Shown piece by piece: positions 22,384-36,321 of a stretch of DNA of 64,000 bases. The notes beneath the pieces are model-generated. The model was given only the letters and a program-made list of their open reading frames with translations, was not told the DNA's origin and searched no databases. A program made the translations under genes and the position numbers. Source of the DNA: a virus; IMG/VR virus record IMGVR_UViG_3300029188_000196, positions 2,329 to 66,328 of that record, one strand, 5' to 3'. The first letter of the stretch is position 1. Each line of letters begins with the position of its first letter.

Positions 22384-25300
22384 TTACTTGAAGACCGAAT
22401 CATCCTCGTGGATCATGCCGTTGATCTTATCGGCAACGGTCTGTGCGAGTTCATCATCGTTCCGGGCATTGTAGCCATTGACCGTGATATACACACCGCC
22501 AAGGTTGGTCGTCCGGGTGGTGCCGCCTCCGGCCAGAGCCGCCTGCGGGAAGTTCCAGCCAGAGCCATCGAAGTGCGGCAGGGTCAGTTCCGGCAGGCTG
22601 AAGGAACTGATGCCCTCCATTCCCTGCTGTACCTTTGCTGCCATCGACCTGATCTGGCTGATCAGTCCGCCCTCGCCTTTCTTGATGCCACCGGAAAGCA
22701 GTTTCATAAAGTCGGGCATATAGGTGTCCGCATCTGCCAGAGGTCCTTCATCCGGCACAGAGAAGTGCAGGAACGAACGGATACCGCTTGCCACACTCTT
22801 GACCGCATTGCCGACCCAGCTCACACCCTTCTTGATGCCTCCTGCAATGCCGCCAACGATGTCCTTGCCCCAGCTGACTGCCGAGGAAGCCACGTTCTTG
22901 ATACCGCCCCAGATGGACGATGCCACGTTGCCAATAGCAGATGCCGCATTGGAGATTCCGTTCTTGATGGCGTTTATTCCATTCGAGAATACCGAAGTGA
23001 CCTTGTTCCAGATATTTGTGACACCTTCCCGGAAGCCATCGCAGTTTTTCCAGAGAGCGGTCAGTCCAAGACCGATGCCGCCAACGGCTGCCACTGCGAT
23101 ACCTGCAGGACCCGCCAAACCAGCAAGTGCCGTGCCTGCGGATGCGAGGAAACCACCTGCGGAGCTTGCTACCCCTGCAAGGGCTGTACCTGCACCAGCA
23201 GCCAGGCCGGATACGGTCGTACCCACAGAACCGAGCAGACCGGAAAGCGTTGTGCCGACTGTCCCGGCAATACCGCCCAGCGAAGAACCGATAGACGATA
23301 CGATGCCGGAAAGACTACCGCCTAAGCCGCCGATCTTCGATACCACACCAGAGAGCAGTCCGCCCAGATTCGACAGGATTCCCCCACCGCTGGAGCCAAG
23401 GCTTCCCAGCTTCGAGATGATGCCGGAGATTCCCTCTCCCAGACCGCCCATTTTGGAGGTCAGTCCGGAGATCAGATTGCCAAAGTTCGACACGATCTGA
23501 CCGCCATCTGCACTGCCGATTTTTGACAGGAAACTGCCGATGTTGGATAACAGACCACCGCCGTTCTCTGTACCGAGGACATTGCCGAGGTTCTGCATGG
23601 TATCACCAATGTTTCCGATGGTGCTCTTCATGGAACCAAGCTTGTCCACAAGCCCCGTGACCGTATTGACCGTATCGCCGACTTTGCTGATACCATTGCC
23701 CAGACTCTTTAAGAAATCCGAGTTGAAAGTATCGCCAAGGCTTCGGATCGAATTTCCAAGGGAACTGGTCTGAGAACTCAGCTCGCCAATGGAAGATTTC
23801 ATGTCCGCAAAACCCTGCTTTACTTCATCACTCATGCCGCCGACTGCGGTTTTGGTGATGCCCTGCAAGTCTGTCCAGAGCTGTTGAAACTGTGTTTTCA
23901 CACCGGAAAGGCCAGACATCAACTGAGTCTGGATACTACTGCCAACGCTCCGTGCAGCCGAACCGATTCCGCTCTGGTTTCTGCTGATTGTTGCAGCAAA
24001 GCCCCCGACCACCGAATCCATCCAGTCTCCCAGAGAATTCACAGGGGTCGTAAGGTTATTGCTCATTGACCCAGCCAGACCTTTCACGGCTTTAACTACA
24101 ACTTTTACATTTTTCTTGATACCACTTGCCAGCAGCTTCATAAAGTCTGGCATATACTCATCGGCATCGGACAGCGGACCTTCATCTGGCACTGAGAAGT
24201 GCATGACGGAACGAATCTTATCCGCAACACCATTGATGGCACTTGTCACCTCTCCGATCTTCGACTGAATGCCAGAAACGATATTCCCGATAATATCCGC
24301 ACCCCAAGAGAAAGCCTGACTTGCCAGCCCCTTGATATACGCAACTGCGCTGTTGAACCCTGCTTCAATTGCGGAACGAATGTTTCCGACCGTACTTATG
24401 ATGCCACTATGCATAGCAGTGAAAGCACTGATTGCCGCATCCCTTGCGCTGTTGCTGAAAGAAGTAACCGCAGTCTTTGCCGCATTCCACCCAGCAGAAA
24501 TTGTGGACTGGATCGTAGCGGTAACGGACGAAATCGTACTGCTGATGCCGGTCCAGATGGAAGAAACAGTGGACTGGATTGCAGAAAGGACCGTCGAGAT
24601 GACTGTCTTGATCGCATTCCATACCGTGCTCATCTGGGTCTGGATGCCAATCAGCAGCGGAGATAGGAACGATACAATGGCGTTCCACACCGTAGTCACT
24701 GCGGTCTGGATCGCAGTCAACGCGGTGGAGATCGCGGTCTGGATGGCTGTCCAAATCGTAGAGAAAGTTGTTTGCAATCCGGTCAAAATCGGCGTTATAA
24801 ATGCAACGATGGCGTTCCAGATGGAAGTGATTTTCGTCTGGATTGCGGTCAATGCCGCACCGATCAGGATTTGTATTGCCTGCCAGATGGTCTCAAACAA
24901 ATATTTGAACGCATCCAACAGAGGTTTCATGGTGTTATAGATGCCATTCCACACCGAAGTGATGGTCGTGCTGATGGTATTCATGACCGTAGTGATCGCG
25001 GTCGAGATCGCCGTCCACACAGTTGTCACCGTGGTATGGATCGTATTCAGCACGGAAGAAACTGCTGTAGAAATGGCAGTCCAGATGGTGCTGAAGGTCG
25101 TCTGGATACTCGTAAGGACAGTCGTAAAGAAACTCGAAACTGCTGTAAATACTGTCGTTGCCACACTCTGGATAGCGGAAACTGTGTTTGAAAAGAAGCT
25201 GCTGATTCCGCTCCACACGGTCTCGAAGAAGCTCTTGATACTGCCCCAGACCGTCTGCCAGTCTGTCCCAAACAGACCGAGGAACACATCCAGTGCGCTC

Positions 25301-27375
25301 TTTAGTGCGGTAAGCGTCGTGGAGAATACAGACTTCACACCTTCCCAGATGCTGGCGAAGATTTCCTTTACCGCTTCCCATGCACCGCTCCAATTGCCGG
25401 AGAACACATTGGAAAAGACATCGAACAGACCGAGCAGCGTATCCAGAACCGTACTCAATACCGTAGCCATAATCTGGAATGCTCCCTCGAACAGCGGTGC
25501 AAGCACCTGACAGAAGCCATCCCAGACGGCTTTCAGTACCTCAGTGACATCCTTAAAATCAAAGCCCAGCCCGTTGATCCGCTGTGTCAGCTGGTCGCAG
25601 AAGCCTTTCACCTTGGAAACAATGTCGTTCCAGATGCCGGTAATGGCAGTGCGGAACTCCTCGTTGGTGTTCCAGAGGTTCATGAACGCCGCCACCAGCG
25701 TACCGATGACCGCCACCACTGCTACGACCGGCCCGGACAGACCACCCAGAACCACACCCAGCTTGCTGAACACACCGCTGGCACTGCCCACATGGGTGAT
25801 GAGAAGCCGGACACCCTTTGCAAGAGAACTGAATCCCCGCATCGCTGTGCCGACGGTCGATATGGTCTTGCCCAGCACAATAAGCAACGGACCAATGGAT
25901 GCCGCCAGAAGTCCGATCTTGATGATCGTTTCCCTGGTGCTTTCATCCATGCTGTTCAGCTTGTCCACGAACTGCTGCACGGCAGATACGATCTTGCGGA
26001 TGGTGGGCATCAGGATATCGCCAAAAGAAATAGCCAGCTCCTCCAGCTGAGATTTCAGGATGGTAAGCTGACCATTTAAATTGTCCTGCATGGTCTCTGC
26101 CATGCTCTCGGATGCGCCATCGCAGTTTTCAATGGCACCACGCAGTTTGTTGATGTCCGTCTCGCTGGAATTCATCAGGGCAAGGAAACCGGACATGGCA
26201 TTCTTACCGACCAGTGCCTCTGCGTTGGCTGCCTTCTCAGATTCCGACAGCCCGGAGAATGCCACACGGCAGTCCGCAAGGATGTCGTTTAGGCTTCTCA
26301 TGCTGCCATCTGCGTTGCTGGTCGCAATCGTGACCTCACCGATGTTTTTACCAACATAGGTCACTTCACCGGAAAGGTTGTTCATGATGGTACGAAGGGA
26401 AGTACCAGCCTGAGAAGCCTTGATACCACTGTTTGCCATCAGACCGATGGCTTCTGCGGTATCCTCTGCCGAGAACCCCAGTGCACCGGCAATAGGCGCA
26501 CAGTACTTGAACGTCTCGCCCATCATGGAGACATTGGTGTTCGCATTGGAAGAAGCGGCCGCAAGGATATCTGCAAAATGCCCGGAATCTGCCGCAGACA
26601 AACCGAAAGCTGTGAGGGCATCCGTAACGATATCCGAAGTCGTAGCGAGGTCTTCACCGGATGCCGCCGCAAGGTTCATGATACCTTCGATACCGTTCAG
26701 CATGTCGGAGGTCTTCCATCCGGCCATGGTCATATACTCCATCGCCGAAGCTGCCTCGGATGCAGAGAACTTGGTCTTTGCACCCATCTCACGGGCTTTC
26801 GCACGAAGCTGGTCGAAGTCATCCCCGGTCGCACCGGAAATGGCAGAGACCTTGCTCATCTCGGAATCGAAATCTGCTGCAGTCTTCACTGCAGCAGTGC
26901 CAAGACCCGTTACAGCGGCAGTCACCGGCAGGAACTTCTTACCGACATTCTCCACAGAAGATCCAATGTTCTGGAGCTTTTCTCCGGCTTCATCGATTTT
27001 GGCAAGAGTCGCATTCGTGGTCGCCGCCTGGTCCTGTAAGGATCGCAGATTCTGTTCAGTCTCCACGATCTCACGCTGGAGAGCATCGTACTGCTGCTGG
27101 GTGATCTCACCGTTGGCAAGCTGCTCATTAGCCTGCTGTGCGGCAGTCTTCAGCGTTGCCAGCTTTTCCTTGGTGGCTTCAATGGCATCCTTGAGCATCT
27201 TTTGCTTCTGGACGACCAGTTCTGTATTGGAGGGGTCCAACTTCAGGAGTTTGTTGACATCCTTCAGTCCGGACTGCGTCCCCTTGATTGACTTGTTTAC
27301 ACTTTCCAGTGCTTTGGAGAGCTTTGTGGTATCGCCGCCGATCTCAACGGTGATGCCCTGGATTCTGGATGCCAT
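22384..27375 (-). CDS. Tail tape measure protein (about 1660 aa)
   Basis: N-terminal TMP helical region ('KLDPSNTELVVQKQKMLKDAIEATKEKLATLKTAAQQ'). Long internal T/V/W-rich repeats ('STIWTAIQTAISTALTAIQTAVTTVWNAIVSF...'). Gly/Ser-rich tract. Duplicated 'HFSVPDEGPL(S/A)DAD(E/T)YMPDFMKLL' modules. Start at 27375 with AAGGAGGTGG RBS. Confidence 0.9.
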   Translation of the reverse strand: MASRIQGITVEIGGDTTKLSKALESVNKSIKGTQSGLKDVNKLLKLDPSNTELVVQKQKMLKDAIEATKEKLATLKTAAQQANEQLANGEITQQQYDALQREIVETEQNLRSLQDQAATTNATLAKIDEAGEKLQNIGSSVENVGKKFLPVTAAVTGLGTAAVKTAADFDSEMSKVSAISGATGDDFDQLRAKAREMGAKTKFSASEAASAMEYMTMAGWKTSDMLNGIEGIMNLAAASGEDLATTSDIVTDALTAFGLSAADSGHFADILAAASSNANTNVSMMGETFKYCAPIAGALGFSAEDTAEAIGLMANSGIKASQAGTSLRTIMNNLSGEVTYVGKNIGEVTIATSNADGSMRSLNDILADCRVAFSGLSESEKAANAEALVGKNAMSGFLALMNSSETDINKLRGAIENCDGASESMAETMQDNLNGQLTILKSQLEELAISFGDILMPTIRKIVSAVQQFVDKLNSMDESTRETIIKIGLLAASIGPLLIVLGKTISTVGTAMRGFSSLAKGVRLLITHVGSASGVFSKLGVVLGGLSGPVVAVVAVIGTLVAAFMNLWNTNEEFRTAITGIWNDIVSKVKGFCDQLTQRINGLGFDFKDVTEVLKAVWDGFCQVLAPLFEGAFQIMATVLSTVLDTLLGLFDVFSNVFSGNWSGAWEAVKEIFASIWEGVKSVFSTTLTALKSALDVFLGLFGTDWQTVWGSIKSFFETVWSGISSFFSNTVSAIQSVATTVFTAVSSFFTTVLTSIQTTFSTIWTAISTAVSSVLNTIHTTVTTVWTAISTAITTVMNTISTTITSVWNGIYNTMKPLLDAFKYLFETIWQAIQILIGAALTAIQTKITSIWNAIVAFITPILTGLQTTFSTIWTAIQTAISTALTAIQTAVTTVWNAIVSFLSPLLIGIQTQMSTVWNAIKTVISTVLSAIQSTVSSIWTGISSTISSVTATIQSTISAGWNAAKTAVTSFSNSARDAAISAFTAMHSGIISTVGNIRSAIEAGFNSAVAYIKGLASQAFSWGADIIGNIVSGIQSKIGEVTSAINGVADKIRSVMHFSVPDEGPLSDADEYMPDFMKLLASGIKKNVKVVVKAVKGLAGSMSNNLTTPVNSLGDWMDSVVGGFAATISRNQSGIGSAARSVGSSIQTQLMSGLSGVKTQFQQLWTDLQGITKTAVGGMSDEVKQGFADMKSSIGELSSQTSSLGNSIRSLGDTFNSDFLKSLGNGISKVGDTVNTVTGLVDKLGSMKSTIGNIGDTMQNLGNVLGTENGGGLLSNIGSFLSKIGSADGGQIVSNFGNLISGLTSKMGGLGEGISGIISKLGSLGSSGGGILSNLGGLLSGVVSKIGGLGGSLSGIVSSIGSSLGGIAGTVGTTLSGLLGSVGTTVSGLAAGAGTALAGVASSAGGFLASAGTALAGLAGPAGIAVAAVGGIGLGLTALWKNCDGFREGVTNIWNKVTSVFSNGINAIKNGISNAASAIGNVASSIWGGIKNVASSAVSWGKDIVGGIAGGIKKGVSWVGNAVKSVASGIRSFLHFSVPDEGPLADADTYMPDFMKLLSGGIKKGEGGLISQIRSMAAKVQQGMEGISSFSLPELTLPHFDGSGWNFPQAALAGGGTTRTTNLGGVYITVNGYNARNDDELAQTVADKINGMIHEDDSVFK

Positions 27376-27400
27376 TTGCGTAACCACCTCCTTGCAGGCA

Positions 27401-27479
27401 TGAAAAAAGCCCATCTGCACGGAGCAGACAGGCTAAAAAATGGGTATAAAAATACCCTGCCAGCTTTCACCAGCAGGGT
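27401..27479 (-). terminator. Two tandem rho-independent terminators between the ATPase moron and the TMP gene
   Basis: On the minus strand, ACCCTGCTGGTGAAAGCTGGCAGGGT + ATTTTTAT, then CCCAT...ATGGG + CTTTTTTCA directly before the TMP RBS. Confidence 0.55.
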
Positions 27480-27491
27480 TGATTAGAATTT

Positions 27492-28889
27492 TTACTTGTA
27501 AAGGTCTTCCAGCGTTATCAGCCGAACTTCACCTCGCTCTTGTGCCTGAAGAAGTCCATCTGTGAATCCGCCTTTCGAGAAGATATAGTAGTGATAGTTG
27601 TTGCCCTTTCCAAAAACTGAGGCATAATTCCGAATCAAATCGAGTTCATCCACACCGATTTTCTCATTCCGGTATTTGCATGAACCGATGATATAGTCTT
27701 TGCCCTCAACAGGAGTTCCGACGATATCAATCTGTATCTGCTTTTTCTTCTTCGGGTCTGTCCCCCACCACTGGCCGATTTCACTCAGCTCAATAGGAAG
27801 GCTATCCGAATAATAGAGCAGGTAATCCTGACACATCTTCTCATAAATTAGACCCATGTAATCCGGAAGATACTGTTTTACAGCGTGTGGATAGGTCTTT
27901 GCAATTCTGCCAGAGTCAATGGCACTCATATTGATTGGCACAAACCGATACCAGAAACGGAAGAAGTTATCAGCCAGCAGATAGATGGTTTTCTTACCCG
28001 GTTTTTCTGTAATCGGTGTTTCTTTCTTAGCAATGCCAAGGTCGATCAGCGTTTTCAGGTACTTCGATACGACCGAGTTCTCCTCGCCGACCTTCATCTT
28101 GATATCGTTCATTCGGGAAGCACCTTCTGCAATCGCTTTAATGATTGCATTATAAATGGCTGGCTCCCGGAGTTCCTGCTTCAGTAAGTTCCCCGGTTCC
28201 TCATACAGATAGCTGGAGCGGTCAAAGAAATTATCCAACAGAGCTTCATCCACACTATCTCGCACATCCAACTTATTGATATAGTGGGGAACTCCTCCCG
28301 TGATTCCATAAATCAGGGAATTGTCTTCTGCGGACAGATTTGGGTGGAACACAGCGGTTTCTTTATAGTCTAGCGGCTCAATCTTAAACTGGCCAGTACG
28401 TCTGCCATACAGCGGACTTTCCTTGCCAAGCACCTGACTCTCCATGAAGCTCATAGAGGAGCCGCAAAGAATCAGGTACATCTTTGATTCTGTCCACTTG
28501 TGGTCGATGATGTGCTGCAGCATCGCTGAAATGGCCGGCTTTGCCTTTGCAAGATACGGGTACTCGTCAATAACAAAGACTATTCGTTTTTCCTTTGAAA
28601 GTGCAGTCAGCTCGTCCAAGGCAGCATCATAAGACCTGAACTCTGGTGCAAACTCCATATCTGGCCGCTCAAAACTCATGATTGACTTTGAGAGAGCCTC
28701 CAGATTTTCCTTTCCTGTCGTATTCAATGCAGAAAAGAAAATGGTAGGCTTATCTTTACAGAACTCATTGATCAATGCTGTTTTACCAACACGTCGTCTG
28801 CCGTAGATGACGATGCACTCAAACTTATCACCAGCGTACCGTTTATTCAGTTTCCGAAGCTCATCCTCACGGCAATAGAATTGATTCAT
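27492..28889 (-). CDS. AAA+ ATPase (Arch_ATPase/DUF234-type 'ATP-binding protein'); moron in the tail module
   Basis: Walker A 'GRRRVGKTALI', 'VFVIDEYPYL' Walker B, DUF234-like C-terminal region. It has its own TTGACT-17-TATTAT promoter and its own terminators, and sits between G/GT and TMP where no conserved tail gene is expected. Confidence 0.7.
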   Translation of the reverse strand: MNQFYCREDELRKLNKRYAGDKFECIVIYGRRRVGKTALINEFCKDKPTIFFSALNTTGKENLEALSKSIMSFERPDMEFAPEFRSYDAALDELTALSKEKRIVFVIDEYPYLAKAKPAISAMLQHIIDHKWTESKMYLILCGSSMSFMESQVLGKESPLYGRRTGQFKIEPLDYKETAVFHPNLSAEDNSLIYGITGGVPHYINKLDVRDSVDEALLDNFFDRSSYLYEEPGNLLKQELREPAIYNAIIKAIAEGASRMNDIKMKVGEENSVVSKYLKTLIDLGIAKKETPITEKPGKKTIYLLADNFFRFWYRFVPINMSAIDSGRIAKTYPHAVKQYLPDYMGLIYEKMCQDYLLYYSDSLPIELSEIGQWWGTDPKKKKQIQIDIVGTPVEGKDYIIGSCKYRNEKIGVDELDLIRNYASVFGKGNNYHYYIFSKGGFTDGLLQAQERGEVRLITLEDLYK

Positions 28890-28950
28890 ACGTCCACCTC
28901 CAATAATTATACTCGTGAGTTAGTAACTCGTAAGTTACTTCTTTGCGAGT

Positions 28951-28979
28951 ATAATAAATCAGATGGTCTGCAAAGTCAA
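28951..28979 (-). promoter_or_regulatory. Sigma70-type promoter (TTGACT-17-TATTAT) of the ATPase moron, followed by a nested palindromic 5'UTR
   Basis: The -35 and -10 hexamers are 17 bp apart. Downstream are nested inverted repeats TTATACTCG...CGAGTATAA and GTAACtcgtaaGTTAC (28908-28954), then a GGAGGTGG RBS. Confidence 0.5.
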
Positions 28980-28997
28980 GTAAAATAAGTCGAACCT

Positions 28998-29539
28998 TTA
29001 GAACCGGTCGAAGTCCGACTGACTTGCCAGCTCTTTGTACGGATAGTCGTCGTTCTGCCGCTCCGTGAACATATCATTGACCAACCCGATGGTCAGCAGG
29101 TCGAGGTCGGCGATGCTGATACCGAGCTGTACACAGCGCAGCAGAAAGAGCGGGGTGGTCATTTCCCGCTCACTTTTTCGAGGTTTTTTCTGGATTCCAC
29201 CTCGGTCTGCACGTTCAGACCCCACAGTTCGATCAGCTGGGGAAGGATCTGATAAATGGAGAACGTGTTGAACTGGTCCAGGAACTCCTCCGGGCTGTCC
29301 GGCACATTCGCAGGGTCAGCATGACGGGCCATCAGCCATGCCAGATCCTCGAACATTTCCAGACTGAACAGGTCGAGGTTGGAATTGTCCTCATCGTTCT
29401 CACCCACGCTCTTTTCCAGCTGGCGCAGGTCTTTATAGATGTCACGGCCGAACTTGATGCGGTACAGGCGAGGCACAGCGGCACTTGCCTTAAAGATGAC
29501 TTCCTTGCCATCGATCTCGATTTTCTTTGTAACTGCCAT
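28998..29539 (-). CDS. Tail assembly chaperone GT, -1 frameshift fusion product
   Basis: The -1 frame is open from the slippery site to 28998 ('GIQKKPRKSEREMTTPLFLLRCVQLGISIADLDLLTIGLVNDMF...'). Conserved position between the major tail protein and the TMP. Confidence 0.6.
29159..29539 (-). CDS. Tail assembly chaperone G (gpG-like)
   Basis: 'MAVTKKIEIDGKEVIFKASAAVPRLYRIKFGRDI' is a typical TAC N-terminus. Start at 29539 with GGAGGA 9 nt upstream. It ends 7 codons after the slippery site. Confidence 0.7.
   Translation of the reverse strand: MAVTKKIEIDGKEVIFKASAAVPRLYRIKFGRDIYKDLRQLEKSVGENDEDNSNLDLFSLEMFEDLAWLMARHADPANVPDSPEEFLDQFNTFSIYQILPQLIELWGLNVQTEVESRKNLEKVSGK
29183..29189 (-). other. 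Programmed -1 ribosomal frameshift slippery heptamer A_AAA_AAC (G/GT)
   Basis: The minus-strand sequence AGA AAA AAC in the G frame becomes CAG AAA AAA C in the T frame. This is a classic X_XXY_YYZ site near the 3' end of G. Confidence 0.65.
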
Positions 29540-29572
29540 AATCGTAATCCTCCAAAATTTCATGTAAAATTG

Positions 29573-29593
29573 GCAGAGCCGAAGCCCTGCCGT
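29573..29593. repeat. Direct repeat copy 1 (CAGAGCCGAAGCCCTGC hairpin-like) flanking the SPFH gene
   Basis: A 17-bp element identical to that at 30461-30481. It forms a GGCAG...CTGCC stem followed by a U-rich tract on the minus strand. Confidence 0.7.
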
Positions 29594-29605
29594 ATATCGT
29601 GTTTC

Positions 29606-30439
29606 TTACTCTGCCGGGTCAATGCTGACCAGTGCATTACCGCCACTCACAGTCGGCAGCTTTCCATCCCACTTCTGGATCTTCTGGTAATCGATCAGCG
29701 TATCGGACAGGCTTTCTGCCAGTTTGCGGTTTGCCTCTGCCTGTGCTTCTGCGGCAATGGAAGTCTTCTGGGCTTCCGCCTCTGCATTGGTGATCGCCAC
29801 CTGCTTATCCGCTTCTGCCTTGGCAATGGCGGCTTCATTCTCGATCTTCTGCTTATCTGCGTTCTGCTGGGCAATGGACTTCTGCTGGATGGCTTCGTTG
29901 TAGGCATCCTCGAAATTCATGTCGTTGATGACGACCTTATTCACGAACACAACGTCCTCACCATACTTCTGCACAAGGGACTCTGCCAGCTTCTGCTGCG
30001 CCAAAGGTTCAATCTTAGTGCGGTTGGTTACCTCATTGGGGCCAAGTTCAGCCATCGCAGACTTGATGGCAGATGCCACCAGCTCGTCACCGACCAAATT
30101 CTTGATGTCGGACACATTCGCATACAGCCATGCACTCTTCTCAGGAAGCACCTGATAGGTCACGATCACATCTGCAGCATACACAGGTGTTTTATCGGCG
30201 GCTTCGCCCCAGACCTGTGCTTCGATATGCTTATCCTGCTGCTTGTTGTTGACCTTGTGGATACTCTGCACAAAGGGAATGCAGAAGTTGAGCTTGCCAC
30301 TCTGAATGGTGGTCTCCTTGATCTGACCGAAGCTGGTCTTCACGCCGGTGTAGCCGGTAGGGATGATGTGGAACGAGCAGACAGCCAGCACCAGAACGAT
30401 GATCACTGCGAACAAAGGAAAAATCTTCTTCATAATCAT
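29606..30439 (-). CDS. SPFH/Band 7 (prohibitin/HflKC-like) membrane protein; moron in the tail module
   Basis: N-terminal TM helix 'IFPLFAVIIVLVLAVC', SPFH core 'IIPTGYTGVKTSFGQI...', Ala/Glu/Gln-rich coiled-coil C-terminus. Inserted between the major tail protein and G/GT. Confidence 0.8.
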   Translation of the reverse strand: MIMKKIFPLFAVIIVLVLAVCSFHIIPTGYTGVKTSFGQIKETTIQSGKLNFCIPFVQSIHKVNNKQQDKHIEAQVWGEAADKTPVYAADVIVTYQVLPEKSAWLYANVSDIKNLVGDELVASAIKSAMAELGPNEVTNRTKIEPLAQQKLAESLVQKYGEDVVFVNKVVINDMNFEDAYNEAIQQKSIAQQNADKQKIENEAAIAKAEADKQVAITNAEAEAQKTSIAAEAQAEANRKLAESLSDTLIDYQKIQKWDGKLPTVSGGNALVSIDPAE

Positions 30440-30460
30440 ATACCTCTTTATAATAATGTA

Positions 30461-30481
30461 AGCAGAGCCGAAGCCCTGCGG
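30461..30481. repeat. Direct repeat copy 2 flanking the SPFH gene
   Basis: Same 17-bp element as 29573-29593. It lies immediately downstream of the major tail protein gene and acts as a terminator-like hairpin. Confidence 0.7.
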
Positions 30482-30497
30482 TGTGTGTGTCGGTCAC

Positions 30498-31112
30498 TTA
30501 GCCCTGCGGCTCCTCGGTGTGACCGGTGTCTTCGGTGTCCACAGCTTCCGCCTGCGGCTCATAGACCGCATCGTACCACTTGTTATAGACATCATCGGTG
30601 GTGTTGGTACCGGTCTTTGCCTTTACATAACCGTTTGCCAAAGGGGTTGCCTGCAGGTTCAGGGTGTCCGTCTTGACTTCCTTGCTGTCCTCATTGGTCT
30701 CACCCTCGATGGACGGACGGCTTGCCACACAGTTGTACAGCACATGACGGATGTGGCGCTGGTCACCATCGAACTCGAACAGGAACGCAAAATGCTCCAG
30801 TTCCACATTGGCATTCTCAGCAAGCACGCCGTTGCCGTCCAGCTCCTCGTGCATGATGTCCGTAAGGAAGCTCTCCGGAATCAGTGCGATCTCCAGATCA
30901 CCCTCGTAGCCGGAGTTGTTATTCACGACATAGTAAGCGATATTGTCCGCATAGAACGGCTCGATCTCGCCATTGGCATCCATAGAAAGACTGACTGCAC
31001 CGGGGATGCGGACCGGCTTTGCGTAAGTGACGCTGCCATCTTCGTCAAAGGTTGCCTTGGCATAATGGCAGTTTTTCAGGCCAAATTTGACCTTATTGCT
31101 TTTCTTCGACAT
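30498..31112 (-). CDS. Major tail protein (TP901-1/phi13 family)
   Basis: 'KFGLKNCHYAKATFDEDGSVTYAKPVRIPGAVSLSMDANGE' family signature. 204 aa with an acidic C-terminus. Confidence 0.8.
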   Translation of the reverse strand: MSKKSNKVKFGLKNCHYAKATFDEDGSVTYAKPVRIPGAVSLSMDANGEIEPFYADNIAYYVVNNNSGYEGDLEIALIPESFLTDIMHEELDGNGVLAENANVELEHFAFLFEFDGDQRHIRHVLYNCVASRPSIEGETNEDSKEVKTDTLNLQATPLANGYVKAKTGTNTTDDVYNKWYDAVYEPQAEAVDTEDTGHTEEPQG

Positions 31113-32546: not shown

Positions 32547-33752
32547 TTAGCCCTGCGGTGCCATCTGCAGAAGCTGTACGGCTTCCGGCAGGATCAGCTT
32601 GCCATCCACACGCTGGGTGGTCAGGAAACCGACCTGATCAGTACGGGCATACAGCTCGTTCAGACGGCGGAAGGTGCGGTTCTGGCGGTCAGCCACCCAG
32701 TAGTAGCTGTAATCACCAAAGGCCATGACCTTGCTGCCACCCTTGATCTCCGGCATGAAGGCGGAGGTCTTCAGCGGACGGTTCAGCAGGGTATCAGGCT
32801 TGCCGATTTCCAGACCCGGCTTCCAGATATAGTTGCCGTTGTTGTCCTTGATGGTCATCAGCTGCAGCACCAGGGCTTCGTTGCAGAGGAACTGTGCCTT
32901 CTTGCGGTACGGAGCCTTCAGTGCGTAGTAGAGCTTGAAGATCTCATCAAAGGACACAGCATCCTTCTGGGCAGCGGTCACACCGACCTTGGCACCGCCG
33001 GTCTCTGCCAGCAGGCCCAGAGGCTTGCCCACACCGTCGCCGGTGATAAATGCACGCTCCTCTGCGTTGCCCATACGCACACCGAAACGGCGGGCAATAT
33101 AGGTGGCAAGGTCGAATGCAGAGTCGTTCAGCAGCTCGTTGGAGATCTTGATCATAGTGCCCAGCTTGTAAGCAGACAGCATGGTCTGACCGAAGGTGGT
33201 GTCGCTCTCCGGGATCTCCTCGCCCTCATCGATCCAGCTTGCCTCGCCGGTATCCTCTGCGATAGGAATCTTACGGGTACCGGAGCTGGTGCGGATGACG
33301 GTCGCCATACCACGGAAGATGTTGTTCTCCTCCAGTGCCTCTACCAGCTTCTTCTCAAACTCATCGGGAACGGTAAAGCCGCCCTCGGTGTCCTCACCCA
33401 CAGACAGGGCATTGCGGACCTCGCCGTAATGGCCGCGGTTGCGGATCATGTTCCAGAAGTTCTCAGCGTACTCGGCAGTGGCGGTCGGCTTGACATCCTT
33501 CTTGGCACCGTTCTTCGGGTCCGCATGGACAGGGCTGGAAGTCGGTGCGGACAGCTGTGCCTCGATCTGTGCCTGCTGCTCCAGACGCTCGATCTCCGCA
33601 CCCAGGTCCTTGACCTCCTGTGCCATCTTGTTGTACTGCTCCACGGCATCAGCCTTTACCAGACCATTCTCGCCGCGGTTCTTCTCCAGAAAGTCCTTGG
33701 TCTGCTCCCAGAGAGTGTTGCGCTTGGTGCGCAGTTCCAGAATCTTACTCAT
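32547..33752 (-). CDS. Major capsid protein, HK97 family
   Basis: 401 aa; 'GGFTVPDEFEKKLVEALEENNIFRGMATVIRTSSGTRKIPIA' HK97-fold signature. N-terminal delta-domain-like coiled coil. Confidence 0.85.
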   Translation of the reverse strand: MSKILELRTKRNTLWEQTKDFLEKNRGENGLVKADAVEQYNKMAQEVKDLGAEIERLEQQAQIEAQLSAPTSSPVHADPKNGAKKDVKPTATAEYAENFWNMIRNRGHYGEVRNALSVGEDTEGGFTVPDEFEKKLVEALEENNIFRGMATVIRTSSGTRKIPIAEDTGEASWIDEGEEIPESDTTFGQTMLSAYKLGTMIKISNELLNDSAFDLATYIARRFGVRMGNAEERAFITGDGVGKPLGLLAETGGAKVGVTAAQKDAVSFDEIFKLYYALKAPYRKKAQFLCNEALVLQLMTIKDNNGNYIWKPGLEIGKPDTLLNRPLKTSAFMPEIKGGSKVMAFGDYSYYWVADRQNRTFRRLNELYARTDQVGFLTTQRVDGKLILPEAVQLLQMAPQG

Positions 33753-33809: not shown

Positions 33810-34709
33810 TCACTTCATGCACTCAAGCTGCTTCATCAGGATATTGTAGGGGATGCTGCCATCCTCAGTCTTGCCGTCCATGTCAAGGACAGGCCCCGGA
33901 TTAGCAGGCGGTTCTACCTGAGGGGTCGGCTCGGCGGACGGTTTCGGGTCAGCAGGCGGCTCCTTCGGCTCAGTGTGTTTCTGGCCCACATCTTCCGGTT
34001 TCACACCCAGACGGTTCAGGACGATTAGATCCATCTGACGGCTGGAGAAAAGGTGCCCTGCCGTGTCCTTCTGGAACGGCTTCTCTTCTCCGCCCTCGCC
34101 CGGTTCACTGTCGGGGGCTTCTTCCGGATTCTCCGGGTCTGCCGGGTCACTGTCCGGCTCCTCCTCTTTCTTTGCAAAGAGGATCTCGTCTGCAAAGCCC
34201 AGCTCCACCGCCTTCTTCGCATTCATCCAAGTTTCATTGCTCATAAGGTTGGCGATGCGAGCATGGCTGAGTCCGCTCTTTGCAGCGTAGGCATTGATAA
34301 TGCTCTCCTTGACCTCGGTCAGCACCTCGATGGCTTTCTCCATGTCCTTAGTATTGCCCATCGCTACCGTGCTGGGGTCATGGATCATCAGCATGGCAAC
34401 GGGACTCATCTGGACAATGTCACCGGCCATTGCCACAACGGATGCAGCAGATGCCGCAATCGCATCGATCTTGACCGTGATGCTGCCCTTGTAATCCTTA
34501 AGCATGGTATAGATCTCAGCAGCGGCGAACACATTTCCGCCCGGAGAGTTGATCCAGACGGCCACATCCCCCTCACCGGATTCCAGCTCATCCCGGAACA
34601 TCTGTGGCGTGATCTCATCGCCCCAGAACGATTCCTCATCGATGGGGCCTTCCAGCCGGAGGATTCTGGTATCGTCACTGTTTTTGATCCAGTTCCAGAA
34701 TTTCTTCAT
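33810..34709 (-). CDS. Prohead protease (ClpP/S14 family) with acidic C-terminal extension
   Basis: 'VWINSPGGNVFAAAEIYTMLKD...AASAASVVAMAGD...MIHDP' ClpP motifs including the catalytic Ser and His regions. Confidence 0.85.
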   Translation of the reverse strand: MKKFWNWIKNSDDTRILRLEGPIDEESFWGDEITPQMFRDELESGEGDVAVWINSPGGNVFAAAEIYTMLKDYKGSITVKIDAIAASAASVVAMAGDIVQMSPVAMLMIHDPSTVAMGNTKDMEKAIEVLTEVKESIINAYAAKSGLSHARIANLMSNETWMNAKKAVELGFADEILFAKKEEEPDSDPADPENPEEAPDSEPGEGGEEKPFQKDTAGHLFSSRQMDLIVLNRLGVKPEDVGQKHTEPKEPPADPKPSAEPTPQVEPPANPGPVLDMDGKTEDGSIPYNILMKQLECMK

Positions 34710-36106
34710 CGGGTTCTCCTTCTTTCATTTTTCCGTGGCTTACTCTCACTCAGCCGGTTATCGCTTTCAGGTTCTTCTTCCGGGTCGGGCTGTGTTTCTT
34801 TCGGCTGATTCTGCTGGACGGCGGCAGCTTTATTCTGCTGTGCCACTCCTGCATCTTTCAGCTTTACATAGCCGCCGTTCAGGTAGTAGTCATCTCCGCC
34901 CTCCTCTGCCGGGATGAGATCCATGTTCTCCAGCCGATGCACATCATTCGGGGAGAGGAACCCATTGCTGATGCCGGTCGCATAACCGTTCATCCGGCTC
35001 TGATAGTCGCCACGGAGCAGACCGTCCACATTGAACTTCGGGAAGTAGGTGTCCTGCTCCTCTTCCAGCAGCAGATCCTTGATGATGCCCTGCTCGATGC
35101 GGACAAGCCACGGAGTCAGGGAGTGCATCACGAAGTTCAGTGACTGGTATTCAATGTTGGAGAAGGTCGCTCTGGACAAGTCCGCCACCAGATGCGGAGG
35201 CACACGGAAGATACGGCAGATCTCCGTCACGGAAAACTGCTTCGTTTCCAAAAACTGGCTGTCCTCCGGCGGCAGGGAGATTGGTTTGTAGGATAGGCCC
35301 TCTTCCAGCACAGCCACACGATGTGCATTGGAAGCACCACCGTAAGCCGCTTCCCAGCTGTCCCGGATACGGTTCGGGTCTTTCACAACGCCGGGATGCT
35401 CCAGCACACCGCTAGGCTGTGCACCATTCTTGAAGAAGGACGAGCCGTACTTGTCCACCGCAATGGATGTGCCGAGGCTGTTCTTCATCATGGCAATCGG
35501 TGAGAAACCAATCAGACCATTAAAGCCAAGCCCCGGCACATGGAAGATCTCGTCCCGGCGGAAGTAGATGTCTTTATTCTGCTCTCCCGGAACTTCATCC
35601 GTGTATGCGTGGTAGATATAGTAAAGCTCGCCACTCTCATCTCGATCCACTTCGACATTCTCCGGCAAAAGCGGATACAGACCCAGCACCGTGTTCTTGC
35701 CATCCCGAACAATCTGTGCATAGGCGTTGCCCCAGAGGAGCAGGTGGGTCATCAGTGTCTCCCAGAAGACAAAGGATGTCATCTCCGGGTTGGGCTGCCG
35801 ATACAGAATCTTGTACAGCGGATGATCCCGTGCCTTTTCCTTGTTGCCGTTATCGTCCGTCACACGGTAGAGATGCAGCGGCAGTGCTGCAATGGACTCT
35901 GCCAGCAGACGGACACAGGCATATACGGTCGGGATCTGCATGGCGGCTTTTTCATCCACCTGCTCCCCGGCATTGGAACGACCAAACACAAAGGTCTGCC
36001 CGGAATCGCGGACGTTATCCGTGACCTGCGGCAGACCTTCTTTTGGCTGTTCTGTTTTGGGAGAATCCCTTGGGTTCTCAAACCCCATCCATTCCCAGAA
36101 TCCCAT
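34706..36106 (-). CDS. Portal protein (HK97 family)
   Basis: 466 aa; conserved portal core ('LPLHLYR...GNAYAQIVRDG'). Start codon overlaps the stop of the upstream gene. Confidence 0.85.
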   Translation of the reverse strand: MGFWEWMGFENPRDSPKTEQPKEGLPQVTDNVRDSGQTFVFGRSNAGEQVDEKAAMQIPTVYACVRLLAESIAALPLHLYRVTDDNGNKEKARDHPLYKILYRQPNPEMTSFVFWETLMTHLLLWGNAYAQIVRDGKNTVLGLYPLLPENVEVDRDESGELYYIYHAYTDEVPGEQNKDIYFRRDEIFHVPGLGFNGLIGFSPIAMMKNSLGTSIAVDKYGSSFFKNGAQPSGVLEHPGVVKDPNRIRDSWEAAYGGASNAHRVAVLEEGLSYKPISLPPEDSQFLETKQFSVTEICRIFRVPPHLVADLSRATFSNIEYQSLNFVMHSLTPWLVRIEQGIIKDLLLEEEQDTYFPKFNVDGLLRGDYQSRMNGYATGISNGFLSPNDVHRLENMDLIPAEEGGDDYYLNGGYVKLKDAGVAQQNKAAAVQQNQPKETQPDPEEEPESDNRLSESKPRKNERRRTR

Positions 36107-36321
36107 TAAGCCTTATCCTCCTTCTCCAGCTCCGGCAGACCGGCAAGGCTGGTACCGAGGGATGCAACGCCTGCCACGATAGCTGCACTGCCAACTGCCA
36201 TCCAGTCCACAGTACCACCGGGCATCTGGGTCACGATCAGAGCTGCGCCGGTCTGGAACATCGTCTTTGCAGCACGGATACCGGCTGCCTTCCACCATTC
36301 TGCACTCATCAGATACTTCAT
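36106..36321 (-). CDS. Small membrane protein (holin-like) between terminase and portal
   Basis: 71 aa, two hydrophobic segments. GGGAGG RBS; stop overlaps the portal start (TAATG). Confidence 0.5.
   Translation of the reverse strand: MKYLMSAEWWKAAGIRAAKTMFQTGAALIVTQMPGGTVDWMAVGSAAIVAGVASLGTSLAGLPELEKEDKA

What the first reader, a model, noticed from the sequence alone, without database searches (positions are those of the whole stretch)
29573..30481. SPFH/Band-7 membrane protein gene inserted in the tail module, flanked by 17-bp direct repeats
A prohibitin/HflKC-like SPFH gene sits between the major tail protein and the G/GT chaperones, a position that is normally gene-free. It is bracketed by identical CAGAGCCGAAGCCCTGC hairpin elements, as if the native post-MTP terminator was duplicated when the gene was acquired. 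A phage-borne SPFH protein could modulate FtsH-type proteolysis, membrane microdomains or superinfection exclusion in the lysogen.
Basis: partly seen in the sequence, partly recalled or inferred. Interest (0 to 1): 0.65.

Follow-up and report, generated by a model that had tools for sequence, protein, structure and literature searches.

The report
SPFH membrane gene in tail operon
A gut-bacterial prophage carries a prohibitin-like membrane protein gene wedged between its tail-tube gene and tail-chaperone genes. It is bracketed by two copies of a duplicated intergenic hairpin, and it is a real, old and conserved accessory gene of a known but functionally unexplained kind.

Summary
A 277-aa SPFH/Band-7 gene (29606-30439, minus strand) lies between the major tail protein gene and the G/GT chaperone genes. 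It is bracketed by an 18-bp exact direct repeat 889 bp apart. On the mRNA strand the repeat is a GCAGGGC-UUCG-GCUCUGC hairpin.

The repeat is the core of a duplicated intergenic unit: hairpin, YTACAT, Shine-Dalgarno, ATG. In one relative the two copies match over 47 nt. Two relatives whose flanks are 100% identical to SPFH-bearing phages lack exactly the 889 bp and keep one hairpin.

The gene is not a recent moron:
- About 76% of sampled close relatives carry it intact at this site.
- It has diverged in step with the tail genes (dS about 0.8-0.96, dN/dS 0.11-0.14).
- Its GC3 matches its neighbours.
- No credible promoter of its own was found.

The next slot, GT to tape measure, is instead a hypervariable defence/toxin-antitoxin hotspot. 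In this window it holds an ATPase_2-DUF234 gene.

I infer that the protein is made late, with the tail proteins. I also infer that it is a signal-anchored, outward-facing SPFH protein that forms a cage acting on a host membrane client. Function is untested. Verdict: solid but fairly ordinary, a new member of the phage SPFH family (phrog_200).

The parts
30498..31112 (-). Major tail (tube) protein gene, 204 aa
   Evidence: phrog_88 at 1.2e-58; Pfam L_lac_phage_MSP at 31 bits.
30440..30497 (-). Upstream copy of the duplicated intergenic unit: A/C-rich spacer, hairpin, TTACAT, Shine-Dalgarno AGAGG, ATG of SPFH
   Evidence: Sequence read. The layout is conserved in 40 distinct variants from 157 loci.
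30462..30479 (-). Upstream 18-bp repeat copy; sense RNA GCAGGGC-UUCG-GCUCUGC hairpin
   Evidence: The stem covaries between lineages.
29606..30439 (-). SPFH/Band-7 (prohibitin/HflC-like) gene, 277 aa: N-terminal signal-anchor helix, SPFH domain, long C-terminal helix
   Evidence: Pfam PF01145 at 60 bits; phrog_200 at 3e-40. AF2 model with pLDDT 75; Foldseek top hits are prohibitin and HflK/C at 1e-14 to 1e-13. dN/dS 0.11-0.14.
29540..29605 (-). Downstream copy of the intergenic unit: spacer, hairpin, TTTTACAT, Shine-Dalgarno GGAGG, ATG of G
   Evidence: 39 distinct variants from 188 loci.
29572..29591 (-). Downstream hairpin GGCAGGGC-UUCG-GCUCUGCC, containing the 18-bp repeat copy 29573-29590, followed by AAUUUUACAU; terminator-like
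   Evidence: Flagged as terminator-like. Fold centroid -15.7 kcal/mol.
29159..29539 (-). Tail assembly chaperone G, 126 aa
   Evidence: phrog_709 at 4e-39. Called as 126 aa on metagenome contigs.
29183..29189 (-). -1 slippery heptamer A AAA AAC in the G frame; shifting here reads into the T frame (KKPRKSEREMTTPLF...)
   Evidence: Direct reading of the sequence together with the 75-aa ORF 28998-29225.
28998..29225 (-). T part of GT, open in the -1 frame from 29225. The separately called 54-aa ORF spans 28998-29162.
   Evidence: phrog_3033 at 2.7e-23; gene calls.
27492..28889 (-). Neighbouring true moron, not part of the SPFH unit: ATPase_2 + DUF234 gene. It has a sigma-70-like promoter at 28979-28951 and terminator-like hairpins at 27479-27454 and 27434-27408.
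   Evidence: Pfam at 95 and 66 bits; PADLOC PDC-S27 at 3.7e-56; promoter and terminator scan. GC3 is 0.52 against about 0.68 for the neighbours. Found in only 3 of 80 close relatives.
22384..27420 (-). Tape measure protein gene, about 1678 aa; downstream end of the chaperone/moron region
   Evidence: ORF. Annotated as tape measure in the syntenic position of related phages.

Best explanation
WHAT IT IS
- The window is largely a temperate siphovirus prophage of gut Clostridia, distantly related to Ca. Heliusvirales.
- Inside its late tail operon sits an 889-bp unit: a host-derived SPFH (prohibitin/HflC-like) gene plus a second copy of the intergenic segment that precedes G.
- That segment consists of an RNA hairpin, YTACAT, a Shine-Dalgarno sequence and the ATG.
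- The '17-bp direct repeats' are the hairpin cores of this duplicated segment.

SHOWN
- The gene is old at this site and common in the lineage.
- It has co-diverged with MTP and G and is under purifying selection.
- It can be lost precisely by recombination between the two hairpin copies.

INFERRED
1. The gene has no promoter of its own. Any transcript that reaches the essential G, GT and tape-measure genes must cross it. So both hairpins must be leaky, acting as attenuators or 3' stabilisers on the sense RNA, and SPFH is made late with the tail proteins.
2. The protein is a signal-anchored N-in/C-out membrane protein. Its SPFH domain and long helix assemble into a ring or cage on the outer face of the cytoplasmic membrane.
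3. There it sequesters or modulates a host membrane client during late infection. An FtsH-type protease is the precedent; the host's own roughly 45%-identical SPFH paralogue is an alternative. The effect would be to condition the membrane, for example lysis timing or protection of phage membrane proteins.
4. It is an accessory gene, not needed to build the virion.
For: Identity:
- Pfam Band_7 at 60 bits and phrog_200 at 3e-40.
- PDB sequence hits to HflC, prohibitin and QmcA.
- The AF2 model shows TM helix 6-22, an SPFH domain at 23-175 and a helix at 177-255. Foldseek top hits are prohibitin 8rrh at 1.4e-14 and HflK/C at 6e-13.

Duplicated intergenic unit:
- 18/18 identity in the window; 47 nt at 91% in L190, running through to the ATG.
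- The same layout is seen in 79 distinct intergenic variants.

Hairpin as a sense-RNA structure:
- Stems differ between lineages but always pair: GCAGGGC/GCUCUGC, GCGGGGC/GCUCCGC, GGGGCGGG/CCUGCCCC, GGGCAGGG/CCCUGUCC.
- All 42 non-Watson-Crick pairs are G-U on the sense strand, which would be C-A on the antisense strand.

Long residence at this site:
- 65 of 80 loci chosen through G alone have full SPFH; 66 of 87 distinct contexts are intact.
- The MTP-SPFH-G order is kept down to MTP 71% / SPFH 81% identity.
- dS is 0.81-0.96 for SPFH, 0.76-1.96 for MTP and 0.71-1.13 for G. dN/dS is 0.11-0.14.
- GC3 is 0.67 for SPFH, 0.68 for MTP and 0.69 for G.

Precise loss:
- L023 and L038 keep one hairpin, with the left flank of the upstream copy and the right flank of the downstream copy.
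- Their flanks are 100% identical over 1507 + 1476 nt to the SPFH-bearing loci L093, L101, L024 and L035.
- Exact junction counts in IMG/VR are 2 empty against 68 filled.

No own promoter:
- The only hit is a 9/12 match whose -10 box overlaps the start codon, and the same pseudo-site sits before G.

Topology:
- The N-terminal KK/KKR is conserved, and Cys21 is not conserved.

Host origin:
- Homologues at 36-46% identity lie in non-phage chromosomal contexts.
Against: - There are no expression data. Absence of a promoter rests on a sigma-70 consensus scan only.
- Topology rests on the positive-inside rule only.
- Oligomerisation and the client are analogy, not evidence.
- In other phages (Toutatis, Lelie, Skarpretter, phiFN37) SPFH genes sit in early or replication regions. 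A late role may therefore not generalise.
- The SPFH-less and frameshifted alleles come from metagenome contigs, and their viability as phages is unknown. 'Dispensable for the virion' is therefore inferred.
- The upstream hairpin was not flagged as terminator-like by the scan.
- No PADLOC or other functional family gives a direct clue.
Confidence: 0.7

Rival explanations
1. The gene is a classic moron, expressed from the prophage, which gives the lysogen superinfection exclusion, defence or altered FtsH proteolysis.
For: - It is an extra gene absent from sister phages.
- It is a membrane protein, as many exclusion proteins are.
- It lies next to a proven moron hotspot.
- A terminator-like hairpin follows it.
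Against: - No credible promoter of its own.
- No PADLOC match.
- Its content is constant across the lineage. The adjacent GT-to-TMP slot instead swaps at least 10 defence or toxin-antitoxin cargo sets among near-identical phages.
- Its composition and synonymous divergence match the tail genes, unlike the ATPase moron.
Confidence: 0.2
2. The gene is a genuine tail-morphogenesis or structural-module gene of this lineage, needed to assemble or deliver the tail, for example by handling the very long hydrophobic tape measure protein at the membrane.
For: - Fixed position between MTP and G.
- Co-divergence with the tail genes and purifying selection.
- Obligatory co-transcription with the tail genes (anatomy).
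Against: - Sister phages with homologous MTP, G and tape measure lack it.
- Precise-deletion, frameshifted and internally deleted alleles occur in otherwise near-identical phages.
- The predicted extracytoplasmic anchoring is hard to reconcile with cytoplasmic tail assembly.
- In other phages SPFH is not in structural modules.
Confidence: 0.05
3. The hairpin repeats are recombination sites of a mobile cassette, integron attC-like or homing-type, that moves SPFH between genomes.
For: - The cassette is bracketed by imperfect palindromes.
- Loss is precise and leaves one site.
- Paralogous copies are more alike within a genome than orthologous copies are between lineages.
- An HNH-AP2 homing endonuclease sits right after the downstream hairpin in some relatives.
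Against: - Among the close homologues (at least 72% identity), whenever the downstream flank was readable SPFH was followed by G.
- No integron-type integrase is adjacent.
- The hairpins are 18-26 nt and strand-asymmetric (G-U only on the sense strand), which points to RNA.
- The repeat extends through the ribosome-binding site to the ATG, which is a duplication signature.
- SPFH divergence tracks that of its neighbours.
Confidence: 0.03
4. The gene is a functionless passenger and the repeat is chance or an assembly artefact.
For: - About 15% of sampled relatives carry disrupted or partly deleted SPFH.
Against: - dN/dS is 0.11-0.14 over dS of about 0.9.
- 0 of 100 shuffles give two copies of the 17-mer.
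- Nearly all of the 170 loci with full SPFH and readable flanks, from many samples and isolate genomes, have a hairpin on both sides.
Confidence: 0.02

Closest known systems
E. coli HflK/HflC-FtsH complex and mitochondrial prohibitin PHB1/PHB2-m-AAA protease cages
   Same: - N-terminal membrane anchor, SPFH domain and long C-terminal helix.
- Best structural matches (Foldseek 1e-14 to 1e-13) and best PDB sequence matches.
- The predicted N-in/C-out orientation matches that of HflK/C and prohibitin.
   Different: - Only 17-23% identity.
- Fails the HflC equivalog cut-offs (24-32 bits against 134-427).
- It is a single gene with no K/C-type partner next to it.
- It is phage-encoded and embedded in a tail operon.
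- No client has been demonstrated.
Phage-encoded SPFH proteins (PHROG phrog_200, labelled 'lipoprotein'; examples include Faecalibacterium phage Toutatis gp21, Bacillus phages AR9/PBS1, Escherichia phage Skarpretter 'band 7 protein', Fusobacterium phage phiFN37)
   Same: - Same family (phrog_200 at 3e-40; tblastn 23-44% identity).
- Function is unknown. A 2026 paper states that the reason the domain is found in a phage genome 'remains unclear' (PMC13239085).
   Different: - In the four that were examined, the gene sits among early or replication genes, not in the tail operon.
- The lipoprotein label does not fit here, because the Cys is not conserved.
Morons in siphovirus tail regions, e.g. 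HK97 gp15 between the G/GT chaperone genes and the tape measure gene, and lambda lom/bor (from my own knowledge; not checked in the paper library)
   Same: - An extra gene inserted between conserved tail genes and absent from sister phages.
- Followed by a terminator-like hairpin.
- A membrane protein.
   Different: - No promoter of its own was found, there is no compositional contrast, and the content is constant across the lineage.
- The textbook moron pattern is shown instead by the neighbouring ATPase_2-DUF234 gene and the other GT-to-TMP cargoes.
Intra-operon stem-loops acting as leaky intrinsic terminators or 3' mRNA stabilisers, setting the stoichiometry of abundant versus rare products (general knowledge)
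   Same: - A GC-rich 7-11 bp stem with a stable tetraloop (UUCG or GAAA).
- A U-rich tail, placed directly after the most abundant tail protein gene.
- The structure is conserved by covariation on the sense strand.
   Different: - The element is present twice because of the duplication.
- An invariant YTACAT motif follows it, and I cannot explain that motif.
- No Rfam family matches.
- Termination efficiency has not been measured.

Membership tests
SPFH / Band 7 superfamily (Pfam PF01145) | Sequence match to the family profile above the curated gathering score | tested here: met
   60.0 bits against a cut-off of 23.6; residues 25-211 cover profile positions 2-175 of 176.
SPFH / Band 7 superfamily (Pfam PF01145) | SPFH alpha/beta fold followed by a long C-terminal helix, as in the solved cage-forming members | tested here: met
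   AF2 model with pLDDT 75: strands and helices at 23-175, helix at 177-255. Sixty PDB matches at E<=1e-3; the top hits are prohibitin, HflK/C, erlin, QmcA and stomatin.
SPFH / Band 7 superfamily (Pfam PF01145) | Membrane anchoring through an N-terminal hydrophobic segment | tested here: met
   Hydrophobic helix at residues 6-22, preceded by a conserved KK/KKR. The N-in/C-out orientation is inferred from the positive-inside rule only.
SPFH / Band 7 superfamily (Pfam PF01145) | Assembly into a large homo- or hetero-oligomeric ring or cage | not testable with these tools
   Only a monomer was modelled. Testing this needs biochemistry or cryo-EM.
HflC / HflK (FtsH modulator) equivalogs | Score above the NCBIfam equivalog cut-off | tested here: not met
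   NF008259 gives 32.2 bits against 427. TIGR01932 gives 23.6 bits against 134.4.
HflC / HflK (FtsH modulator) equivalogs | A paired hflK-hflC gene arrangement | tested here: not met
   The immediate neighbours are the major tail protein gene and chaperone G. There is no second SPFH gene in the region read, 25-36 kb.
Moron (extra transcription unit in a prophage late region) | An extra gene between genes that are adjacent in related phages | tested here: met
   MTP and G lie between a 4-nt overlap and a 13-nt gap in six Heliusvirales relatives.
Moron (extra transcription unit in a prophage late region) | Its own promoter upstream | tested here: not met
   The only hit is a 9/12 consensus match whose -10 box overlaps the start codon. 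An equivalent pseudo-site precedes G. This was a consensus scan only.
Moron (extra transcription unit in a prophage late region) | A terminator downstream | tested here: met
   The hairpin at 29591-29572 plus AAUUUUACAU is flagged as terminator-like.
Moron (extra transcription unit in a prophage late region) | Composition that differs from the surrounding phage genes | tested here: not met
   GC3 is 0.673 for SPFH, 0.683 for MTP and 0.693 for G. The neighbouring ATPase moron is at 0.517.
Moron (extra transcription unit in a prophage late region) | Expression from the repressed prophage | not testable with these tools
   Needs a transcriptome or proteome of a lysogen.
Known or candidate anti-phage defence proteins (PADLOC-DB v2) | Match to any defence-system protein model | tested here: not met
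   No SPFH family at E<=0.01. For contrast, the adjacent ATPase matches PDC-S27 at 3.7e-56.
Bacterial lipoprotein (the label PHROGs gives phrog_200) | A conserved lipobox cysteine at the end of the signal peptide | tested here: not met
   Cys21 (LAVC) is replaced by S, T, Q, R or L in homologues of 72-88% identity.
Intrinsic (Rho-independent) terminator | A GC-rich stem-loop directly followed by a U tract | tested here: inconclusive
   The downstream copy passes the scan. The upstream copy (tail UUACAUUAUUAU) does not. Both must be leaky because essential genes lie beyond them.
Integron-type gene cassette | attC-like recombination sites with an integron integrase nearby, and variable cassette content | tested here: not met
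   Cassette content is constant. Repeats are 18-26 nt with sense-strand-only G-U pairs. The recombinases in the window are serine recombinases 17 kb or more away.

The most novel reading that the evidence does not exclude
The phage SPFH protein is made late with the tail proteins. It builds a cage on the outer face of the host membrane that captures host FtsH, or co-assembles with and poisons the host's own SPFH paralogue. That would control lysis timing or protect phage membrane proteins. If so, it would be the first assigned function for the widespread but unexplained phage SPFH family (phrog_200), found in one of the commonest human-gut prophage lineages. The hairpin-RBS duplication would be a general way to slot a gene into a translationally coupled operon.
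Probability: 0.2. Interest if true: 0.65.

Novelty: new member of a known kind. Interest (0 to 1): 0.4.

Why it matters
- SPFH genes are scattered through many phage genomes, and none has a known role.
- This one is conserved, under selection, and carried by a prophage lineage found at 93-98% protein identity in Blautia, Faecalibacterium, Clostridium fessum, Lawsonibacter and Wujia.
- Natural precise-deletion alleles with identical flanks exist, and so do cultured lysogens. Together they make a clean experiment possible.
- The locus also gives a well-documented case of how a gene is inserted into a tightly packed late operon, by duplication of a hairpin-RBS-ATG segment, and how the same repeats later delete it.
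- It contrasts a stable accessory gene with a true hypervariable defence hotspot about 0.6 kb downstream.

Tried and rejected
- **Own promoter for SPFH.** The consensus scan gave only a 9/12 site whose -10 box overlaps the start codon. Rejected.
- **Defence-system membership.** PADLOC gave no hit.
- **HflC equivalog.** Scores are far below the cut-offs.
- **Lipoprotein.** The cysteine is not conserved.
- **Known RNA family for the hairpin region.** Rfam gave no match at E<=1.
- **Mobile cassette at several genomic positions.** I suspected this from gene calls that fuse SPFH to Terminase_4, ClpP or Pep_deformylase. The two fusions examined (Terminase_4, ClpP) are deletion derivatives still followed by G. 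Rejected.
- **Empty site as the ancestral state.** Rejected, because L023 and L038 have flanks 100% identical to SPFH-bearing phages.
- **Native post-MTP terminator in the wider phage order.** Not found in six outgroups.
- **An SPFH-less sister clade that carries a hairpin.** A search seeded with a diverged G protein found none. It returned only more SPFH-bearing or deletion-derivative loci.
- **Enrichment of deletion breakpoints in SPFH over MTP.** About 8 against at most 1, but p is only about 0.05 by my own rough binomial estimate, and sampling was conditioned on G. Left as an observation.
- **Literature.** No functional study of a phage SPFH protein turned up. The Heliusvirales paper does not mention SPFH.
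Full report
**1. What is at the site**

All genes in this part of the window run on the minus strand. In the direction of transcription the order is:
- portal (34706-36106)
- ClpP-type prohead protease (33810-34709)
- major capsid protein (32547-33752)
- connector, head-completion, gp10-like and tail-terminator genes
- major tail protein, MTP (30498-31112)
- the SPFH gene (29606-30439)
- chaperone G (29159-29539)
- the T part of GT (28998-29225)
- an ATPase_2 + DUF234 gene (27492-28889)
- a tape measure gene of about 1678 aa (22384-27420)

These assignments rest. G and GT are confirmed by a canonical A AAA AAC slippery heptamer in the G frame at 29183-29189. A -1 shift there reads into the T frame. 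The rest of the window carries an endolysin, a tail endopeptidase, a large serine recombinase, a VapE-type primase and an SNF2 helicase. Most of the 64 kb is therefore one prophage.

**2.

- The 17-mer occurs exactly twice in the window. Shuffles predict 0.02 occurrences.
- The exact repeat is 18 bp, with 889-bp spacing.
- On the sense RNA each copy is a 7-8 bp hairpin with a UUCG loop and one G-U pair.
- The SPFH assignment is firm. Pfam Band_7 scores 60 bits against a cut-off of 23.6, and phrog_200 scores 3e-40.
- PDB sequence matches are to HflC, prohibitin and QmcA.
- An AlphaFold model (pLDDT 75) has an N-terminal helix, an SPFH domain and a helix of about 80 residues. Its best structural matches are prohibitin and HflK/C.

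**3. The repeat is the core of a duplicated intergenic unit**

Both intergenic regions have the same layout: a short A/C-rich spacer, the hairpin, YTACAT, a Shine-Dalgarno sequence, then ATG. In the window only the hairpin and TTACAT remain identical. In the diverged relative L190 the two copies match over 47 nt, from the hairpin through to the ATG. The duplicated unit therefore supplied translation signals to both SPFH and G.

Across 170 loci with full SPFH and readable flanks, hairpins flank the gene on both sides in nearly all. The stem sequence differs between lineages but always pairs. Every non-Watson-Crick pair is G-U on the sense strand, which argues for an RNA-level role. That census defined stems by sense-strand pairing, so the argument is modest. 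No Rfam family matches.

**4. Empty sites exist, but they are recent deletions**

I fetched 80 IMG/VR loci through chaperone G alone (96-99% identity), which is unbiased with respect to SPFH:

| State of SPFH | Loci |
|---|---|
| Full gene | 65 |
| Disrupted or partly deleted | 12 |
| Cut by a contig end | 1 |
| MTP directly followed by G (L023, L038) | 2 |

The empty junction is the left flank of the upstream copy, one hairpin, then the right flank of the downstream copy. This is exactly what recombination within the 18-bp repeat would leave. The flanks of L023 and L038 are 100% identical, over 1507 + 1476 nt, to the SPFH-bearing loci L093, L101, L024 and L035. Other relatives in the same sample differ from them by 1-11% in these flanks. 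Exact-junction searches of IMG/VR give 2 empty against 68 filled.

**5. The gene is old at this site**

- The MTP-SPFH-G order holds in relatives down to MTP 71% and SPFH 81% identity.
- Synonymous divergence of SPFH (0.81-0.96) is like that of MTP and G. dN/dS is 0.11-0.14.
- GC3 matches the neighbours.
- Six more distant Heliusvirales phages have MTP and G overlapping or separated by at most 13 nt. They have no room for a hairpin.
- The insertion is thus specific to this lineage. A 'native' post-MTP terminator is not shown in the outgroups.
- The nearest non-phage relatives (36-46% identity) lie in ordinary chromosomal contexts of Clostridia, which suggests capture from a host.

**6. Contrast with the neighbouring slot**

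Between GT and the tape measure gene, phages with near-identical G carry at least ten different cargo sets:
- ParE/Phd
- Abi_2
- AbiEi/AbiEii
- DUF3990/DUF3791
- HTH + DUF6036
- DUF3800
- the ATPase_2-DUF234 gene of this window
- nothing at all in one locus

The window's ATPase matches the PADLOC candidate PDC-S27 at 3.7e-56. It has a 10/12 sigma-70-like promoter, two terminator-like hairpins and low GC3. That is what a moron hotspot looks like. The SPFH slot does not behave that way.

**7. How it most likely works**

Shown:
- the identity of the gene
- the anatomy of the unit
- conservation and purifying selection
- precise loss through the repeats

Inferred:
- No credible promoter precedes SPFH, and the essential G, GT and tape-measure genes lie beyond it. 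Transcripts must therefore read through both hairpins, and SPFH is made late at a level between MTP and G.
- The conserved basic N-terminus followed by one hydrophobic helix predicts an N-in/C-out signal anchor, as in HflK/C and prohibitin. The non-conserved cysteine argues against a lipoprotein.
- By analogy with the solved SPFH cages, the protein would form a ring on the outer membrane face and act on a membrane client. FtsH is the precedent. No data here bear on the client.

**8. Comparison with what is known, and novelty**

SPFH genes are annotated in many phages. In four that I examined they lie in early or replication regions. A 2026 paper states that the reason for the domain's presence in phages 'remains unclear'. 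I found no functional study. The Heliusvirales description does not mention the gene.

This is therefore a new, well-characterised member of a known but unexplained family, at an unusual position. It is not a new kind of system.

**9. Unexplained points**

- Paralogous intergenic copies are more alike within a genome than orthologous copies are between lineages. L190 shows this best. It implies gene conversion or re-duplication.
- YTACAT is almost invariant after every hairpin, and I have no explanation for it.
- Many deletion derivatives have one breakpoint inside SPFH, some as in-frame fusions. The excess over MTP is only marginal. My own rough estimate gives p of about 0.05.

Noticed in passing
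window 27492-28889 (-), promoter 28979-28951, terminator-like hairpins 27479-27454 and 27434-27408: An ATPase_2 + DUF234 gene lies between GT and the tape measure gene. It has its own promoter-like site, two terminator-like hairpins and low GC3 (0.52). It matches the PADLOC candidate defence protein PDC-S27 at 3.7e-56 and is present in only 3 of 80 near-identical relatives. This is the real moron of the region.
   Followed up: partly
GT-to-TMP slot in loci L004-L111 (window 27421-28997): The slot is a hypervariable cargo hotspot. At least 10 different gene sets occur among phages with 96-99% identical G: ParE/Phd, Abi_2, AbiEi/AbiEii, DUF3990/DUF3791, HTH+DUF6036, DUF3800 and ATPase_2-DUF234. 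One locus (L039) is empty with a 31-nt gap.
   Followed up: partly
window 28890-28997 (-); also L009 about 6900-6950: The region upstream of the ATPase contains a long imperfect inverted repeat around the -10 box (TATACTCG...GTAACTTACGAGTTACTAACTCACGAGTATAAT). A very similar sequence appears next to a different cargo (DUF3791/DUF3990) in L009. This suggests a shared promoter or operator module for the hotspot.
   Followed up: no
L099 4897-5592; also L303 and L304: In some relatives an extra stretch of about 770 nt separates the downstream SPFH hairpin from G. In L099 it encodes an HNH_3 + AP2-domain protein (homing-endonuclease type). L303 and L304 show a similar gap, but their sequence there was not examined.
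   Followed up: partly
L093 (Blautia faecis DFI.3.66) vs L101 (Faecalibacterium intestinale CLA-AA-H281): The roughly 3 kb flanking the SPFH site, compared through L023, are 100% identical in prophages on long contigs of isolates from two different bacterial orders, Lachnospirales and Oscillospirales. This implies very recent cross-order spread. SPFH at 93-98% identity also occurs in Clostridium fessum, Lawsonibacter and Wujia.
   Followed up: partly
L009, L010, L054, L061, L064, L066, L078, L100, L110, L112, L275, L279, L284, L314; representatives P0121-P0139: Many independent deletion derivatives have one breakpoint inside SPFH, at about aa 47, 54, 105, 120, 122, 142, 183, 184, 192, 200 and 225. 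Several are in-frame fusions such as Terminase_4::SPFH, ClpP::SPFH and portal::SPFH, and some are in isolate genomes. Breakpoints in MTP are rarer (at most 1 against about 8), but the excess is marginal (my rough estimate is p about 0.05) and sampling was conditioned on G.
   Followed up: partly
L190 2457-2503 vs 3348-3394; clade comparisons: The two intergenic copies in one genome resemble each other more than they resemble their orthologues in other lineages. Examples are both GGGGYGGG-GAAA type in L103/L190 and both CAGAGC in the L117 group. This implies gene conversion or re-duplication.
   Followed up: partly
window 30456-30461 and 29562-29567 (-), and the same position in 79 intergenic variants: A YTACAT motif follows the hairpin in almost every upstream and downstream copy across all lineages, although the surrounding bases vary. 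Its role is unknown. It could be part of the U-rich tail, a processing site or a recognition element.
   Followed up: no
window 36106-36321 (-): A 71-aa r1t-type holin-family gene (PF16945, from the precomputed calls on identical contigs) lies between the large terminase and portal genes. This is an unusual place for a holin-like membrane protein.
   Followed up: no
P0012, alignment A1 columns 217-239: One homologue carries a 23-aa tandem duplication (IAKAEADKQVAITNAEAEAQKTS) inside the C-terminal coiled-coil helix.
   Followed up: no
window 1800-3644 (-), 5883-7514 (-), 10430-12661 (-): Two large serine recombinases and an AAA-ATPase_like + PDDEXK_9 gene lie at the left of the window. The recombinase at 10430-12661 sits next to the endolysin and is probably the prophage integrase. 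The leftmost genes may belong to a second element.
   Followed up: no
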